Position numbers: made by a program | Part shown: piece after piece, positions 1 to 6,000 of the stretch | How positions within the stretch are numbered: the stretch's first letter is position 1 | How the letters are laid out: each line of letters starts with the position of its first letter | Assembly (NCBI RefSeq): GCF_054482525.1 | Contig: NZ_CM137006.1 | Length of the DNA stretch: 64,000 bases | Reading direction: 5' to 3' (one strand)

Positions 1-3000
1 TGTGAAATTATTTTGTTTCCAATGATTTCAGGCGAAAACCTATCAATGCATCTGTTTTCAATAGGCAGCCACCTTCCGTGATTAACATGTTAATCACGGA
101 AGGTGAAAAGCTATCAATAATCGATATTTTCACGGAATTACCACTTAATACATCCCAAAAAATGCGCCATAAAATACCGGGCAATCTTTCCTGATACACA
201 TTATCACTGCACCAGCTATACAGAGACAAAATAATCTGCACCAGCCCCTGTAAATCGGTTATCTGTGCCAGTGTCCCGCCGCTCTACCTGTTCAGGGTTG
301 TGCCAGTTTCTGGCCCTTTGGTTTTCGGCCCTTTCCGGTCAGGCGCTGTTACCCTTATTGCCCCTTAACCTTTATGACCCTTTCCCTTTCTGACGCAACC
401 AGTTTATTTTGAAATGCTCCATGACAGTCTGCACCAGACTGTATTTTCACCACAGGATAACGATCACAAAGTGCAAAAAAATAACATGAAGCACCGAAGA
501 TTGTTAATCTATATGTAGCAGGTAATGATGTCAAAAACTGTCGCAGCATTTTTTATAAAATTATGAGACATTCTGTGGGCATATAATATATGTCACAAGA
601 TGCAGGAAAACAAAGAGAGAGTTTTCAGATATAATCCTGCGTCAGAATTAATGTGATGCCCCGGTGAATTTACATTTTAAAATTTCCCAGTCCCGTAATA
701 TCGGTAAAAACGATTGAAACACCAGCTATTAATCGGGAACGTTTCGAGTGATTACAGGGTAATCACTATAATATCCCGGCAAACTATATTGGTTAAGCAG
801 GAGAATCTGATCAGTTGATATTTATTCGTCATGCTGTAACGATATTTTCACAATATAAACCCGTTCGCCCCCTGCGCCAGATCCGGTACAGAGGGTACGA
901 TAAATCGCTGTCGTTACGCAGTAACGTACTATTTTGCGACATTCATGAATTCAGTCATTCCTCCCTCCAGCGGTAGCCGTACACCTGTTTCACCCAGCGA
1001 CCGCGACCGTCGCCATGACCCAGATCCGTCGCCGTCAGCGCCAGTGACTCCTTTTCGCTGAATCCCTGCGCCAGTATCCAGGACTGTCGTATAACGGGGA
1101 CGCCCGCCTTTGGTGCCAAATACCACTTTTAGCCGGGTTTCACCGCGGGAAATGGCTTTCAGCCACGTTTTCAGCGACTGTGAACTCTGTACCGCCTCCT
1201 GCGAACGCAGCCCCATCAGCCGCGCAATCTCCAGCGCTGCTGCCAGCCCTGCGTCCTGAGTACGGGCTTTCTCCATCACCTGCTGGTAATGTTCCGGCGT
1301 GATGGCGCGGCGCGTGCCGTTGCGCGAAGCGCCTGATACCCCTAATGCCTTATTGGTCAGACGCGGATGCTCCACCACCTGCCTGCGTCCAGCCTGTCTC
1401 AGCACGGCCCGCAACGCTGCCATTTCGTTTTGCAACGTTCGTAAACCAATATCCAGCTCCAGCCGTTCCTCAATGTAGCATTCGATATGGCGAACCTTGA
1501 TCTGCTCCACCCGCTGGATCTGGATATTCAGCGCCCGTAAATGTTCACTGAACCGTTTTGTAATATGGATACGGTCATTCACCGTTTTGAAGCTGCCGCC
1601 CGCTTTCTTCGCCAGCGCCTTCATTTCACTGCTTAATTTACTCATGAATCCCCCTGCAACAAAAACAAACAGTCTCCGGCGTGTGCTTTTTGGCTGCGCC
1701 AGAACGATACCTTTACGCCGGAGTGGTAGTTTGTTGAGGTTTAGGGAGTTTCAGGCTGTACGCAGTACAGACTGCCTGCGAAGCAGGAGTGTCTCCGGGG
1801 CTTCTTGCCCCCCTCGGTATCGATCTTTTTCTCCTTTACTCTTAGCTGACAGCGGCCCCAAAGGGCATGTCAGACGGCGGAAATATGGCGCAGGCCAGAA
1901 CTGGCGCGGCTTGTGGCGGTGAGTTGTGCGGCGTCACTTTGCTTTTTCGCTGGCGCGACCAAAGTGACGCCTCGTCTGGTGCAGGGGGTAAACGTTACGT
2001 TTCTGGTGCAGGGTGACGGTCACGCGGCAGCAAAGCCTGACGGCAATGCAGGCCGCAGCCCGTCAATGTAAGGCGCTGGTTGTCAGCAGAAGATAAAACC
2101 CGGCAAAGCCAGAGTGTCAGCCCGTAAAGCCGGGTATCTGGTGCAGTGATGGTGTATATGTACGTCAGTCTCAGATGCAGGTATTTTTGCATCCCCGGCG
2201 TTTTCAGAGATCAACGCCGGTAAAGGATGCCATGCTGGCGAAGCCAGGCGCTTCTTTCAGACGTGAAGCGACAAAGGGACTGCCCGGAGGCAGTTTGTTG
2301 CAGGCGGGAGACTGCGCCATTATTTCTGGTGCAGGAAGGAAAAACTGTTTCCGGGTTTAAAAGATTGTTTGCTTACCTGGTGACGGAAAAACTGCCGCGC
2401 TTCGCTTGTCTTCTCCCGGCGCGCTGCCAGCAAAAGCAGGCAGCGCGCCGGGAGAGTCTGGTTTTACTGTAACAATGCGCCTGACGGTTCAGCCATCAGG
2501 ATCGGCGTTTTTGCATGAGTCTTCCGGTACGGTTGCCCCGATCATCGATGTATCTGGACGGCCAGATAATTTCCGGTGATGTTTCCAGCGCATCCGCAAT
2601 CAGTTTTTCGCCGCGCGGCCTGGAGCGGGTCAGCGCATTTGCCAGCGTGGAAGACGCCAGCCCGGCCCTGCGGGAAACCTCAGCCAGCGATGTTCCCTTT
2701 TTTCTCAGGCCCGCGATAATATCGGCGGGGTGCCAGTCGGGTTGCATCATGCTGGCCTCCCGTCGATAACCTGTATGCCGTCAGCAGTACATATCCAGCG
2801 TGGGGCGTTCAGATTGGCGGCAAAATACCAGACCAGTTCGCACAGCAGCCCGGTCAGCGTGGTTTCGGTTTCCGGCAGCAGCACGTGGCCGTTCAGTATC
2901 TGCGTCAGCGCCAGGCAGTAATCGCAGAGTGATCCTGCATCAGGCTCAAACCGGGTGAAACATCGGGAAGATCATTCGTAATAAACCCGTCAATCAGATG

Positions 3001-6000
3001 TGGTGGGATCGGCTCGTTCAGCGTGGGCCGTAACAGTGCAAGACAGGTATTAAGCCTGCCACAGAGCGCCGTTTTCAGCGCCGGATCGCAGCACTCGATG
3101 AGCGTTGTGGCAACGCGATCGCAGTACTCCGCCAGATCGGTGAAATCGGTAGCGGCACTAAAGGGAACAGCAAGTAAATTGCATTCAGAGGTGAGAGTAG
3201 TCGCCATAAGGCCGTCTACAGTGAGTGATAAATATTCCAGCCACTGGAGAGGCTAATCTCACGGGTGGTGGAACCGGACGGGGTTAGCCTTACCAGCCTC
3301 ACTGACACTGGCGCGTCTTTCGACGCCCCCGCCCGATCCCGCCATTGAGATGAGACCGTGCGCGACACACAAATATTGTATCGTTAGTGAGGATCTTCAG
3401 GAGGCTAATCCCGACGCCTGATTTTGCAGGCGCGGCGCAACAATACAATGTTCGGTAATTTGCAGCAAGAGGTTTAGCGGAAGCAGACGCACAGGAAAAT
3501 ACAATCACGCGATAAATATTAAATACAATTATATTTATATAAAATATATATTGAGCAATATGCAGACACTTTCCAGTAAATATCCTGTCAGTTATTTCGT
3601 CCCGTTGATATCAGTCAAAAAAATAAATGTAAAAAGAGCGTATTTCGTTTCATACAGTAACGTTATTTATCATTTTGTCCGGTGTCGCCAGCATCAGGCC
3701 AGATGAACCATAAAAAAGGATATCAGCGATGAGCGGAAAACCGGCAGCACGTCAGGGCGATGCCACAATGAAAGGTGGCCCGATAGTCCAGGGGTCGGCA
3801 GGCGTGAGGATTGGCGCGCCAACCGGCGTGGCCTGTTCAGTGTGCCCTGGCGGATTCACTTCCGGTAACCCGGTGAATCCGCTGCTCGGTGCAAAAGTAC
3901 AGCCCGGCGAAACCGATTTCGCGCTGCCCGGCCCGTTACCGTTCGTGCTCTCCCGCACCTACAGCAGCTACCGGACGAAAACCCCTGCGCCCGTCGGTAT
4001 CTTCGGTCCTGGCTGGAAAGCACCCTTTGATATCCGCTTACAGATACGCGATAACGAACTGATACTCAATGATAACGGTGGCAGAAGCATTCATTTTGAG
4101 CACCTGTTTCCCGGTGAGGATGGCTTCAGCCGCAGCGAATTATTCTGGCTGGTGCGCAGCGGCGTGGCGAAACTGAATGAAAGTCACCGTCTTGCCCCAC
4201 TCTGGCAGGCTCTGCCGGAAGAACTCCGCATGAGTCCGCATATTTATCTGGCGACGAACAGTCCTCAGGGGCCGTGGTGGATACTCGGCTGGAGTGAGCG
4301 GGTACCGGGTGTGGATGAGGTGCTGCCTGCGCCATTGCCGCCGTACCGGGTGCTGACCGGCCTGGTGGACCGCTTCGGGCGTACCCTGACCTTCCGGCGT
4401 GAGGCAGTTGGCGAATTTACCGGGGAAATCACCGGCGTGACCGATGGCGCAGGCCGTCAGTTCCGCCTGGTGCTGACCACGCAGGCGCAGCGGGCGGAAG
4501 AGGCCCAGCAGCAGGCGGTTGCAGCCGGAGCAAAACGACCAGATATCCCGATTTCATTGCCGGACTATACAGAATATGGCCGGGATAACGGCATCCGCCT
4601 GTCAGCGGTGTGGCTGACGCATGACCCGGAATACCCGGAGAATTTACCTGCCGCGCCACTGGTGCGCTACGACTGGACGCCACGCGGTGAACTGGCGGCG
4701 GTGTATGACCGCAGCGGTACGCAGATGCGCCACTTTACTTACGATGATAAATACCGGGGCCGGATGGTGGCGCACCGTTACGCAGGCAGGCCGGAGATGC
4801 GTTACCGCTACGACGACATCGGGCGCGTGACGGAACAACGTAATCCGGCGGGTTTAAGCTACACCTATCAGTATGAGAAAAACCGCATCATCATCACCGA
4901 CAGCCTGAACCGGTGCGAGGTGCTGCATACAGAAGGCGAAGCCGGGCTGAAACGGGTGGTGAAAAAAGAGCACGCTGACGACAGCGTCACACAGAGTCAG
5001 TTCGATTCCATTGGCCGCCTTCAGTCACAGACGGATGCGGCAGGCCGGACGACAGAATACAGTCCGAATGTGGTGACGGGTCTCGTCACACGCATCACCA
5101 CGCCGGACGGCAGGAAATCGGAATTTTACTATAACAACCAGAACCAGTTAACCTCAGCATCCGGGCCTGACGGACTGGAAATGCGCAGGAAATATGATGA
5201 GTACGGGCGTCTGACGCAGGAAACCGCCCGCAACGGCGATATCACCCGCTACAGTTATGATAATCCGCACAGTGAATTACCCTCTGCAACTGAAGATGCG
5301 ACGGGTAGCCGCAAGCAGATGACGTGGAGCCGTTACGGGCAGTTACTGACCTTCACCGACTGCTCAGGCTACCAGACCCGTTATGAATACGACCGCTTTG
5401 GTCAGATGACGGCGGTCCACCGCGAGGAAGGTATCAGCCGTTACCGCCGCTATGACAACCGTGGCCGGTTAACCTCGGTGAAAGACGCACAGGGCCATGA
5501 AACGCGGTATGAGTACAACGCCGCAGGCGACCTGACTGCCGTTATCACCCCGGACGGCAACCGGAGCGAGACACAGTACGATGCGTGGGGAAAGGCGGTC
5601 AGCACCACACAGGACGGGCTGACGCGCAGTATGGAGTATGACGCGGCAGGACGTGTCATCAGCCTGACCAACGAGAACGGCAGTCACAGCGACTTCAGCT
5701 ACGATGCGCTGGACCGGCTGGTACAGCAGCGCGGCTTTGACGGGCGGACGCAACGTTACCGTTACGACCTGACCGGGAAACTCACGCAGAACGGGGATGA
5801 GGGGCTTGTCACCCTCTGGCACTACGACGAATCGGACCGTATCACACACCGCACGGTGAACGGCGAACCGGCAGAGCAGTGGCGGTATAACGCCCACGGC
5901 TGGCTGAAAGAAATCAGCCACCTGAGCGAAGGTCACCGGGTGGCGGTGCATTACGGCTATAACCGTAAGGGACGTCTCACCGGCGAGCGCCAGACGGTGC

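What the first reader, a model, noticed from the sequence alone, without database searches (positions are those of the whole stretch)
929..3207. Decayed island control module: integrase remnant, Ner-like regulator and an unassigned Cys-rich gene upstream of rhs
The integrase ORF keeps its N-terminal domains and the box-I arginine region but then loses frame, so the island is probably immobile. A Ner/Nlp-like repressor and a 100-codon Cys-rich ORF of no recognised family sit on the same strand between it and the rhs leader. Ner-type regulators on islands often control neighbouring cargo, so this pair may regulate the Rhs locus.
Basis: partly seen in the sequence, partly recalled or inferred. 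Interest (0 to 1): 0.3.

Follow-up and report, generated by a model that had tools for sequence, protein, structure and literature searches.

The report
Decayed P4-type RNA-controlled island backbone
This stretch is a broken copy of a backbone shared by many small genomic islands of enterobacteria, in which a phage-P4-type antisense RNA switch controls a two-gene operon that lies next to a separate recombinase cassette, and nothing found here indicates that it controls the neighbouring rhs gene.

Summary
All three reported features are present, but the interpretation needs correcting. The window is E. coli PCN033. The region is the inner end of a 10.7-kb tRNA-Asn island, bounded by intact 20-bp direct repeats. 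An intact P4-type integrase lies just outside the window.

The "integrase remnant" is a second, different tyrosine recombinase (Int1). It was killed by a 194-bp internal deletion.

The "100-codon Cys-rich ORF" is the front of a conserved 153-aa gene (ORF153). A 1-nt deletion breaks its frame. Its stop overlaps the start of the Ner-like gene.

Upstream of ORF153 lies a leader like that of the phage P4 immunity region: a1/b1 decoy sites, a C4/CI antisense RNA, then b2/a2 sites over the ribosome-binding site. Across 58 loci the RNA loops co-vary with both target sets (about 99% paired, 162 and 170 double-sided changes).

Upstream of Int1 sits an EFASI RNA motif. The Int1 cassette is flanked by inverted arrays of CTGCACCAG: 49 of 49 sense upstream and 36 of 36 antisense downstream.

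The same backbone carries unrelated cargo elsewhere (T6SS, restriction-modification/DarTG, AbiE), so its main role probably concerns the island itself rather than rhs. What ORF153 and the Ner-like protein do is unknown. I rate this a new variant of a known kind, of moderate interest.

The parts
3440..3468 (-). Inferred sigma-70 promoter of the operon: -35 TTGCTG (3468-3463), 17-nt spacer, -10 TATTGT (3445-3440), transcription start near 3433.
   Evidence: Read from the sequence. The pattern CTTGCC-N17-TATCnT recurs at the same place in the leader alignment A3. Position 1 of the Rfam isrK model falls at 3433. The generic promoter scan found nothing here, so this part is inferred only.
3371..3446 (-). 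Leader like P4 seqA and Salmonella IsrK. It has a hairpin, a second hairpin showing site b1 (TTAGCCT, 3408-3402), then site a1 (CTCACTAA, 3391-3384). The intrinsic terminator that follows in most relatives is missing here.
   Evidence: Rfam c4-a1b1 gives 43.8 bits (cut-off 46.7) and isrK 45.2 bits (cut-off 50). Relatives score 47-50 and 66-77 bits. a1/b1 co-vary with the C4 loops: 98.6% paired, 170 double-sided changes. The missing terminator is visible in A3.
3261..3349 (-). C4/CI-type antisense RNA. Recognition loop a' is TCAGTGAG (3305-3298) and single-stranded b' is AGGCTAA (3290-3284). The acceptor-like stem has one C.A mismatch in this copy.
   Evidence: Rfam RF01695 gives 62.2 bits against a cut-off of 45. 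The acceptor stem is 99.1% paired across the family. The RNA is homologous in layout to the P4 CI RNA.
3218..3256 (-). Downstream target sites, like P4 seqC. b2 is TTAGCCT (3256-3250). a2 is CTCACTGT (3225-3218), lying over the ribosome-binding site. In this lineage the site reads GTAGACGG instead of GGAGGCTG. Between b2 and a2 lies AGTGGCTG (3245-3238), a decayed copy of GGTGGYGG that can pair with the 3' strand of C4.
   Evidence: a'/a2 and b'/b2 are 99.1% paired with 162 double-sided changes; controls with partners slid by 1-3 columns pair 24-45%. The alternative hairpin is 93.9% paired with 21 double changes.
2747..3207 (-). ORF153 pseudogene. The family is 153 aa, with a predicted four-helix bundle and a C-terminal beta hairpin. 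The frame is lost at 2948-2951 by deletion of one base.
   Evidence: lesion; RefSeq annotation says 'frameshifted'; family; structure model, pLDDT 77; dN/dS 0.23.
2496..2750 (-). Ner-family winged-helix gene, 84 aa and intact here. Its ATG overlaps the ORF153 stop (ATGA), which implies translational coupling.
   Evidence: HTH_35 at 106 bits. Mu Ner at E 1e-22 and EnrR at E 1e-19. The 4-nt overlap follows from gene coordinates.
2412..2455 (.). Conserved 20-bp-arm GC-rich hairpin just after the Ner-like gene. There is no T-run, so its function is unknown.
   Evidence: Inverted repeat I2, 95% complementary. It is conserved, with compensatory changes, in E. coli L002 and Klebsiella L009 (alignment printed).
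1976..2334 (+). Array of the 9-mer on the Ner-like gene's side of Int1. CTGGTGCAG occurs at 1976, 2003, 2138 and 2326; it reads CTGCACCAG in the direction of Int1. A conserved hairpin lies at 1930-1971.
   Evidence: Across 24 Int1 genes there are 49 copies within 600 bp upstream, all in sense orientation, against a background of 0.033 per kb.
1701..1828 (-). EFASI RNA motif, ending 55 nt upstream of the Int1 start codon.
   Evidence: Rfam RF02957 gives 100.8 bits against a cut-off of 51.2. It is present upstream of all 9 intact Int1 genes scanned.
929..1645 (-). Int1 remnant, a tyrosine recombinase of the Phage_int_SAM_2 + Integrase_1 type. It has a 194-bp deletion with its junction at 1074/1075. 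The C-terminal motif is out of frame at 1119-955.
   Evidence: RefSeq annotation says 'frameshifted'.
194..437 (-). Inverted array of the same 9-mer on the P4-integrase side of Int1. CTGGTGCAG occurs on the minus strand at 207-215, 236-244 and 429-437. A 25-nt extended inverted repeat, 194-218, pairs with 2135-2159.
   Evidence: Across 24 Int1 genes there are 36 copies within 900 bp downstream, all antisense.
8797..8816 (+). Right-end att repeat of the island, CCAGTCAGAGGAGCCAAATT. It is identical to the 3' end of tRNA-Asn plus 5 nt, which lies left of the window.
   Evidence: The tRNA-Asn and the intact P4-type integrase are at L001 11293-11368 and 11530-12792.

Best explanation
Window 194-3470 is the conserved backbone of a small island related to satellite phage P4, inserted at tRNA-Asn. 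This copy is decayed. The backbone has two units.

Unit 1 is an RNA-controlled operon. A promoter near 3440-3468 drives a leader laid out like the phage P4 immunity leader.
- The leader first carries decoy sites b1 and a1.
- It then carries a tRNA-like C4/CI antisense RNA with recognition loops a' and b'.
- Last come sites b2 and a2, with a2 lying on the ribosome-binding site of ORF153.

The RNA is presumably cut out of its own transcript. It would then pair with b2/a2 on further transcripts, block translation of ORF153 and, as in P4, probably cause premature termination. Through the ATGA overlap this would also silence the Ner-like gene. The upstream a1/b1 copy, usually ending in a terminator, would act as a competing or anti-antisense element, as IsrK does in the Gifsy-1 prophage.

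Unit 2 is a recombinase cassette: EFASI RNA motif plus Int1, flanked by inverted arrays of CTGCACCAG. These are most likely Int1 binding sites.

In this strain ORF153 is frameshifted, Int1 has lost 194 bp including HxxR, the ribosome-binding site is degenerate and the leader terminator is gone. The switch therefore probably has nothing left to switch, even though the RNA and its targets still match.

Shown:
- the identity and layout of the elements;
- the co-variation between RNA loops and target sites;
- the lesions;
- conservation of the backbone across different cargo.

Inferred:
- processing of the RNA;
- repression as the outcome of pairing;
- what ORF153, the Ner-like protein and Int1 do.
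For: - Window identity and island limits.
- Rfam matches: C4 at 62.2 bits and EFASI at 100.8 bits, both above cut-off, with a1b1 and isrK just below.
- P4 itself gives the same three leader models in the same order. It aligns with the same b1,a1 / a',b' / b2,a2 layout, and its a2 lies over the Shine-Dalgarno sequence of a first ORF that also begins MATTLT.
- Co-variation in 58 loci: a'/a2 with b'/b2 are 99.1% paired with 162 double-sided changes; a1/a' with b1/b' are 98.6% paired with 170. Controls with partners slid by 1-3 columns pair 20-45%.
- There are 19 a' types and 6 b' types.
- ORF153 is a real, conserved gene.
- The same gene order recurs at tRNA-Asn, tRNA-Phe and tRNA-Lys in many genera, with different cargo.
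- Lesions. Other strains carry different lesions in the same island.
- 9-mer arrays: 49 of 49 sense upstream and 36 of 36 antisense downstream of 24 Int1 genes, and absent where Int1 is absent.
- Experimental precedents: Gifsy-1 isrK-orf45-anrP, and the P4 CI RNA as summarised in that paper (PMC4825925).
Against: - No expression data exist for this locus.
- The generic promoter scan found no promoter.
- In the window, the a1b1 and isrK models fall below their Rfam cut-offs.
- In Gifsy-1 the short leader RNA activates rather than represses, so the sign of the a1/b1 element's effect is uncertain.
- ORF153 gives only generic helical-bundle fold matches, and it has no PDB, Pfam or PHROG hit.
- Binding of the 9-mers by Int1 is inferred only from co-occurrence.
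- Loci with the Ner-like gene but no Int1, and with Int1 but no ORF153, show the two units can separate. 'One module' may therefore overstate their functional link.
Confidence: 0.75

Rival explanations
1. The Ner-like protein, with or without the upstream ORF, is a local regulator of the divergently transcribed rhs toxin locus.
For: The operon promoter and the rhs start share an AT-rich 260-bp intergenic region, 3470-3728. EnrR, an island-encoded Ner homologue about 55% identical to this protein (my count), binds AT-rich island DNA and counters H-NS silencing of T3SS/T6SS genes (PMC9023278).
Against: The ORF153/Ner-like pair is found with unrelated cargo. Alignment similarity ends at the -35 box, so no conserved operator extends toward the cargo. 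In other E. coli strains the same rhs island carries a Ner-like gene with a nonsense mutation, and in this strain a broken ORF153, so the pair is dispensable for keeping the island.
Confidence: 0.12
2. ORF153 is a growth-inhibiting or killing protein held in check by the C4-type RNA. It would be a counterpart of P4 kil or P1 icd, making C4+ORF153 a toxin/antisense pair that stabilises the island or aborts phage infection.
For: ORF153 sits exactly where P4 kil sits and shares its first six codons. Derepression of the homologous Gifsy-1 circuit causes growth arrest. Orphan C4+ORF145 units without the Ner-like gene, Int1 or an integrase occur several times per genome, for example between tar/tap and cheW.
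Against: No similarity to kil beyond about 19 residues (hhalign probability 5.7%). No match to defence-related or toxin families was seen in Pfam or PHROGs; the PADLOC defence library was not searched. The RNA and its target are made from one transcript, unlike classic type I toxin-antitoxin pairs. That kil and icd are toxic is recalled from my own knowledge and was not tested here.
Confidence: 0.2
3. The Int1 cassette (9-mer arrays, EFASI, Int1) is an independent element. It could be an invertible switch or a small site-specific hitchhiker that entered these islands, and not part of one control module with ORF153 and the Ner-like gene.
For: The arrays are inverted and track Int1, not the Ner-like gene. 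Some islands lack the cassette, and the right edge of the indel lies about 15 bp beyond the last repeat. Int1 also occurs without ORF153. A 25-nt extended inverted repeat brackets the cassette.
Against: Int1 has the same orientation in all 24 loci. An inverted-junction query found no such arrangement in any of 504 E. coli genomes, although only some of these carry both flanks. The left edge of the indel does not coincide with the repeats. The cassette always sits at the same place, beside the 3' end of the P4-type integrase gene.
Confidence: 0.25
4. The 100-codon ORF is a chance open frame and not a gene.
For: No Pfam, NCBIfam, PHROG or PDB match.
Against: There are 241 homologues, mostly exactly 153 aa, with 29 invariant columns. 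Median dN/dS is 0.23. The start codon and Shine-Dalgarno sequence are conserved and targeted by a co-varying RNA.
Confidence: 0.01

Closest known systems
Immunity region of satellite phage P4: PLE leader with seqA, CI RNA (seqB) and seqC, followed by kil
   Same: - The same three Rfam models hit in the same order.
- The layout is the same: b1,a1 / a',b' / b2,a2, with a2 over the Shine-Dalgarno sequence.
- The first codons are the same, MATTLT.
- The island also has a P4-type integrase at a tRNA gene.
   Different: - Downstream genes are ORF153 and a Ner homologue. P4 has kil, epsilon, ORF151, ORF106 and the alpha primase instead.
- No alpha, sid, delta or psu gene is annotated in the island.
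- The operon reads toward the integrase rather than away from it.
- ORF153 is absent from 50,697 phage records apart from one 1.4-kb fragment.
Gifsy-1 isrK-orf45-anrP locus of Salmonella (PMC4825925)
   Same: - An IsrK-like leader with a terminator, matching the isrK model at 53-77 bits in relatives.
- A following region conserved at the nucleotide level but not the amino-acid level, which corresponds to the C4 region.
- AUGA translational coupling to the next gene.
   Different: - The controlled gene there is an antirepressor of a full prophage. Here it is ORF153, unrelated in sequence, followed by a Ner homologue in a non-phage island.
- In the window the IsrK terminator is deleted, and the model scores 45.2 bits against a cut-off of 50.
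P1/P7 immI operon (c4-icd-ant)
   Same: A C4 RNA with a'/b' loops complementary to a1/b1 upstream and a2/b2 at the ribosome-binding site of the next gene. Several specificity types exist with matched changes, as in P1 versus P7 heteroimmunity (my own knowledge). The window matches Rfam C4.
   Different: There is no icd or ant homologue. The context is a small island rather than a phage.
EFASI RNA motif (Rfam RF02957)
   Same: A full-length match at 100.8 bits, lying upstream of an integrase gene as the family description states.
   Different: No STAXI motif was found nearby at the thresholds used. The flanking inverted CTGCACCAG arrays are not mentioned in the Rfam summary quoted.
Mu Ner / EnrR (Ner-family HTH_35 proteins)
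   Same: About 60% identity to Mu Ner and about 55% to EnrR over roughly 65 residues, by my count on the alignments.
   Different: It is not the SfsB orthologue: NCBIfam NF007670 gives 110 bits against a cut-off of 150. It is translationally coupled to ORF153 and sits under antisense-RNA control. No DNA target is known.

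Membership tests
C4 antisense RNA (Rfam RF01695; includes P4 CI RNA) | Covariance-model score at or above the curated cut-off | tested here: met
   62.2 bits against a cut-off of 45 at 3349-3261.
C4 antisense RNA (Rfam RF01695; includes P4 CI RNA) | Two recognition elements complementary to sites both upstream and downstream in the same transcript, with the downstream set at the ribosome-binding site of the next gene | tested here: met
   In the window, b' pairs with b1 and with b2 over 7 of 7 positions. a' pairs with a2 over 7 of 8, and with a1 over 7 of 8 (6 of them contiguous). 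These counts are mine, from the sequences. Across the family 99.1% and 98.6% of cells are paired, with 162 and 170 double-sided changes.
C4 antisense RNA (Rfam RF01695; includes P4 CI RNA) | Processed from the leader of its own operon by RNase P, producing a stable small RNA | not testable with these tools
   The acceptor-like stem and the 3' CCACCACC are present. No RNA data are available.
c4-a1b1 (RF03163) and isrK (RF01394) leader elements | Score at or above the curated cut-off | tested here: not met
   In the window: 43.8 bits against 46.7, and 45.2 against 50. The isrK terminator is deleted here. Relatives pass at 47-50 and 53-77 bits.
EFASI RNA motif (RF02957) | Score above the cut-off and location upstream of an integrase gene | tested here: met
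   100.8 bits against 51.2, ending 55 nt before the Int1 ATG.
Tyrosine recombinase (Int1: PF12834 + PF12835) | Catalytic set R, K, HxxR, H/W, Y in one reading frame | tested here: not met
   The intact homologue has ARLMGLR, GTKGGRPR, PHSLRY, LGHG and YGY. In the window, HxxR is deleted and the H and Y residues are out of frame.
Ner family (Pfam HTH_35) | Domain score above the cut-off and close similarity to Mu Ner | tested here: met
   106 bits against a cut-off of 25. 1NEQ at E 1e-22.
SfsB/Nlp orthologue (NCBIfam NF007670) | Equivalog score at or above 150 bits | tested here: not met
   110 bits.
P4-like satellite phage | P4-type integrase at a tRNA gene, plus a CI-type immunity leader | tested here: met
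P4-like satellite phage | Alpha primase/helicase and the helper-exploitation genes (sid, delta, psu, epsilon) | tested here: not met
   The whole 10.7-kb island is annotated as holding only the integrase, the Int1 remnant, a hypothetical ORF, the Ner-like gene, the ORF153 remnant, rhs and its immunity gene. This rests on annotation; no direct search for these genes was run.
Invertible DNA switch (recombinase with flanking inverted repeats) | Both orientations of the segment are found among genomes | tested here: not met
   0 of 24 loci are inverted. 0 of 504 E. coli genomes carry the inverted junction, although only a subset of these has both flanks.

The most novel reading that the evidence does not exclude
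The window holds a dead copy of an undescribed family of minimal P4-derived tRNA islands found across Enterobacterales. These islands would keep only three things from their ancestor. The first is the P4-type integrase. The second is a hypervariable CI/C4-type RNA 'immunity' switch, with at least 19 x 6 specificity types, driving a new effector pair (ORF153 plus a Ner-like protein). The third is a self-contained recombination cassette (EFASI, Int1, inverted CTGCACCAG arrays). They would use this backbone to carry defence, T6SS and Rhs cargo. On this reading the switch responds to a related element or a helper phage, and Int1 with its arrays is a new site-specific recombination system.
Probability: 0.3. 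Interest if true: 0.65.

Novelty: new variant of a known kind. Interest (0 to 1): 0.45.

Why it matters
For this strain the locus matters little. It is a pseudogenised remnant and does not explain rhs regulation.

At the family level three points are useful.

1. Many small tRNA islands that carry defence systems, T6SS parts or Rhs toxins share a P4-type RNA immunity switch. That gives a concrete and testable handle on how such islands are kept silent or induced.

2. The matched three-way variation of RNA loops and target sites looks like a natural set of separate specificities. This suggests competition or avoidance of cross-talk between co-resident elements.

3. The EFASI motif has no known function. 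Here it is tied to a defined cassette with a candidate protein-binding 9-mer in a strict inverted arrangement, and this suggests direct experiments.

The analysis also shows that the Pfam 'Ash' family and the P4 'cI protein' CDS are read across an RNA gene.

Tried and rejected
- **Sequence searches of ORF153.** Nothing in Pfam, NCBIfam, PHROGs or the PDB. The longer proteins found in the profile search were fused only to 'Ash', which is the translated C4 region.
- **P4 ORF151 as a homologue of ORF153.** I suspected this because of the similar length. hhalign gave probability 0.1%, so I rejected it.
- **P4 kil.** Only the first 19 or so residues align, at probability 5.7%. I treat this as shared leader and start sequence, not protein homology.
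- **STAXI motif next to EFASI.** Not found at E up to 10 in the window, nor at the gathering score in 7 other loci.
- **P4 iterons or integrase arm repeats as the origin of the 9-mer.** The sequences differ, and P4 has no CTGCACCAG.
- **Invertible switch.** No inverted copies were found.
- **Int1 cassette as a clean insertion.** Comparing islands with and without it gave a sharp right edge but no matching left edge. This is inconclusive.
- **Co-resident modules always differing in specificity.** 0 of 32 pairs were identical, against 4.6% of random pairs. By my calculation that gives P of about 0.22, which is not significant.
- **Generic sigma-70 scan.** It found no promoter. The promoter given in the parts list is read from alignment conservation only.
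- **Literature.** Searches for a described island module combining a P4-like integrase with a Ner-like gene found nothing.

Full report
**Where the window comes from**

The region is 100% identical to the chromosome of E. coli PCN033. In the RefSeq annotation (produced by NCBI's PGAP pipeline) a tRNA-Asn gene is followed by an intact 420-aa P4-type integrase. Both lie just left of the window, whose position 1 corresponds to L001 position 13202.

The last 15 nt of the tRNA plus 5 further nt (CCAGTCAGAGGAGCCAAATT) recur at window 8797-8816. The island is therefore about 10.7 kb, bounded by intact direct repeats. It holds only:
- the integrase;
- the region under study;
- an rhs gene (3729-7910);
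- the rhs immunity gene.

**Checking the observation**

All three ORFs exist on the minus strand.

*ORF 1645-929.* It matches Phage_int_SAM_2 and the first 91 of 149 positions of Integrase_1. Alignment with an intact 294-aa homologue (L002 11604-12485) shows a 194-bp internal deletion with its junction at 1074/1075.
- The deletion removes the HxxR motif (PHSLRY) and shifts the frame.
- The box-I arginine (ARLMGLR) and the lysine (GTKGGRPR) remain.
- The C-terminal LGHGDGRGRW..YGY motif is readable only in another frame.

I call this protein Int1. It is a different protein from the tRNA-site integrase.

*ORF 2750-2496.* This is a Ner-family protein. It matches HTH_35 at 106 bits, and by my count on the alignments it is about 60% identical to Mu Ner and about 55% to EnrR. 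It is not the SfsB orthologue: 110 bits against a cut-off of 150.

*ORF 3207-2905.* It has no Pfam or NCBIfam match, but it is not a complete gene. Other strains carrying the same island encode a 153-aa protein. The window has lost one base from an A/T run at 2948-2951, so the last 14 codons of the '100-aa ORF' are out of frame. The rest of the gene reads at 2884-2747. The RefSeq annotation also marks it frameshifted.

The family, which I call ORF153, is real:
- 241 homologues, mostly exactly 153 aa, all in Enterobacterales;
- 29 invariant columns in a 25-sequence alignment;
- 232 clusters at 50% identity in the 1.84-billion-protein representative library;
- median dN/dS of 0.23.

Only two Cys columns are invariant, so 'Cys-rich' is not a family trait. 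The ORF153 stop codon overlaps the start of the Ner-like gene (ATGA).

Rfam finds the following on the minus strand:
- a C4 antisense RNA at 3349-3261 (62.2 bits, cut-off 45);
- its a1/b1 target element at 3446-3394 (43.8 bits, cut-off 46.7);
- an IsrK-like element at 3433-3371 (45.2 bits, cut-off 50);
- an EFASI motif at 1828-1701 (100.8 bits, cut-off 51.2).

**The leader is P4-type**

Phage P4 itself gives the same three leader models in the same order. In an alignment with P4 the layout is identical:
- a hairpin;
- a second hairpin showing b1 in its loop;
- site a1;
- usually an intrinsic terminator;
- the tRNA-like RNA with loop a' and single-stranded b';
- site b2;
- site a2 lying on the Shine-Dalgarno sequence of the first ORF, which begins MATTLT both in P4 and here.

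In P4 these elements are seqA, CI RNA (seqB) and seqC. As summarised in PMC4825925, the CI RNA acts as an antisense RNA and causes premature termination of the operon that it is cut from.

**Co-variation**

I collected 62 further loci with the ORF153 profile and aligned 58 leaders.
- The pairs a'/a2 and b'/b2 are standard base pairs in 99.1% of cells, with 162 double-sided changes.
- The pairs a1/a' and b1/b' are 98.6% paired, with 170 double-sided changes.
- Sliding the partner by 1-3 columns drops pairing to 20-45%.

There are 19 a' and 6 b' variants in 32 combinations, and the upstream and downstream targets follow each variant. This is the pattern expected of a working antisense system with several specificities, as with P1 versus P7 (my own knowledge).

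A further conserved alternative exists. The 3' strand of the RNA's outer stem (CCRCCACC) can pair with its 5' strand (99.1% paired). It can also pair with a downstream GGTGGYGG (93.9% paired, 21 double changes, mostly in one column). The second pairing would show b2 in a hairpin loop. I regard this alternative as only moderately supported.

**State of the switch in the window**

- The a and b elements still match. By my count, b pairs at 7 of 7 positions with both targets, a'/a2 at 7 of 8, and a'/a1 at 7 of 8 with 6 contiguous.
- The Shine-Dalgarno sequence reads GTAGACGG instead of GGAGGCTG. This is shared with other strains of the same island lineage.
- The leader terminator is missing.
- The outer stem of the RNA has a C.A mismatch.

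**The backbone is shared and the cargo is not**

About 30 loci, from genera including Escherichia, Salmonella, Klebsiella, Citrobacter, Kluyvera, Phytobacter, Cedecea, Erwinia, Mixta and Affinibrenneria, show the same order:
1. the leader;
2. ORF153;
3. the Ner-like gene;
4. 0.9-1.9 kb of non-coding DNA;
5. EFASI;
6. Int1;
7. a convergent P4-type integrase;
8. tRNA-Asn, tRNA-Phe or tRNA-Lys.

Dickeya loci have the same order but lack Int1.

The cargo beyond the promoter differs from island to island:
- T6SS/VgrG genes;
- type I restriction-modification with DarTG;
- TacAT, AbiE and DUF4747;
- here, Rhs.

Sequence similarity stops at the -35 box. This argues that ORF153 and the Ner-like protein serve the island itself rather than rhs. 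A trans effect cannot be excluded, because the island-borne Ner homologue EnrR counter-silences T3SS/T6SS genes (PMC9023278).

ORF153 is absent from 50,697 phage records apart from one 1.4-kb fragment. It shows no similarity to P4 ORF151, and it resembles P4 kil only over the shared first residues. By the annotation the island lacks the P4 primase and the helper-exploitation genes, so it is not a P4-like satellite in the usual sense.

**The Int1 cassette**

Exact copies of CTGGTGCAG occur seven times in the first 2.4 kb of the window and nowhere else in its 64 kb. Four are on the plus strand (1976, 2003, 2138, 2326) and three on the minus strand (207, 236, 429).

Across 24 non-redundant Int1 genes:
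- there are 49 copies in the 600 bp upstream, all in sense orientation;
- there are 36 copies in the 900 bp downstream, all antisense;
- the background density is 0.033 per kb.

The 9-mer is absent where Int1 is absent, even when the Ner-like gene is present. EFASI lies upstream of all 9 intact Int1 genes scanned. A 25-nt extended inverted repeat (194-218 and 2135-2159) brackets the cassette in the window.

The simplest reading is that the 9-mers are Int1 binding sites. I found no evidence of inversion: 0 of 24 loci, and 0 of 504 E. coli genomes for an inverted-junction query. The second test is informative only for genomes that carry both flanks. Comparison of islands with and without the cassette gave one sharp edge only.

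Int1 also occurs behind a Ner-like gene without ORF153 in a Salmonella island carrying Kiwa. The two units can therefore separate.

**Decay**

Other E. coli strains with the same island (99.4% identical) carry different lesions:
- ORF153 is intact;
- the Ner-like gene has a nonsense mutation (W63stop);
- Int1 has an extra deletion;
- the P4-type integrase is frameshifted.

Different lesions in different strains point to relaxed selection on the whole backbone in this island lineage.

**What remains unknown**

The function of ORF153 is unknown. It is predicted to be a four-helix bundle with a C-terminal beta hairpin. The DNA target of the Ner-like protein, the signal that flips the switch, and the roles of Int1 and EFASI are also unknown. 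The only direct evidence that an EFASI region is transcribed is its RT-PCR detection in vesicles of an STEC strain (PMC12370729).

**Verdict**

It is wrong about what the broken recombinase implies for island mobility, and it lacks support on rhs regulation.

The locus is a pseudogenised member of a conserved island backbone controlled by a P4-type RNA. Neither the backbone's protein partners nor its recombinase cassette are described in the papers I could search.

Noticed in passing
L027 9856-9940 and L046 9841-9925: In two islands with the same backbone, the place of the C4 RNA upstream of the ORF153 homologue is taken by a match to sRNA-Xcc1 (RF02221, about 70 bits). The leader and the first codons of the ORF also differ there.
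   Followed up: no
L074 9112-10438; also L013, L014, L018-L022, L026, L030, L073: Orphan units of C4 RNA plus a shorter ORF (138-145 aa, lacking the C-terminal hairpin) occur without a Ner-like gene, Int1, integrase or tRNA. One sits between tar/tap and cheW. One genome has up to six, each with a different a/b specificity.
   Followed up: partly
L083 (phage P4) 8168-8584; proteins P0006, P0067, P0224: The P4 CDS annotated 'cI gene product / transcriptional repressor' and the Pfam family Ash (PF10554) are read across the CI/C4 RNA gene. ORF153 homologues are named 'ash family' only when their call is extended upstream over the RNA.
   Followed up: partly
window 1913-2071 (+): RefSeq annotates a 52-aa hypothetical protein (WP_000301065.1) inside the 9-mer array and hairpin region between EFASI and the Ner-like gene. 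It is probably a chance ORF over conserved non-coding DNA.
   Followed up: no
window 2412-2455: A 20-bp-arm hairpin directly after the Ner-like gene is conserved, with compensatory changes, in E. coli and Klebsiella. It has no T-run, so it does not look like a plain terminator.
   Followed up: partly
L019 and L070 leaders (alignment A3): In two loci b1 no longer matches b', while b2 still does. This suggests recombination between the decoy part of the leader and the RNA gene.
   Followed up: no
L012 7935-20350 (Escherichia whittamii): Two backbones lie head to head near tRNA-Asn. Each has its own P4-type integrase, Int1, Ner-like gene and ORF153, which points to tandem or nested island insertion.
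   Followed up: no
L082 3078-13635 (Salmonella, same amn/yeeN locus): A different arrangement: P4-type integrase, two HTH_3 genes, a Ner-like gene, Int1, then Dam methylase, a DUF87 ATPase and Kiwa (KwaAB). ORF153 is absent, and Int1 points toward the cargo.
   Followed up: no
window 3729-8515: The rhs gene has a PAAR-like N-terminus and a variable C-terminal toxin after the DPxGL motif. It is followed by a 200-aa repeat protein that is probably its immunity gene, annotated as tetratricopeptide repeat protein.
   Followed up: no
window 24063-38829: Further right lie a second tRNA-Asn (24063-24135, minus strand), another tRNA (25127-25213), DicF (29672-29723), sok (34784-34958) and a cluster of four tRNAs (38523-38829). 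This looks like a lambdoid prophage, unrelated to the finding.
   Followed up: no
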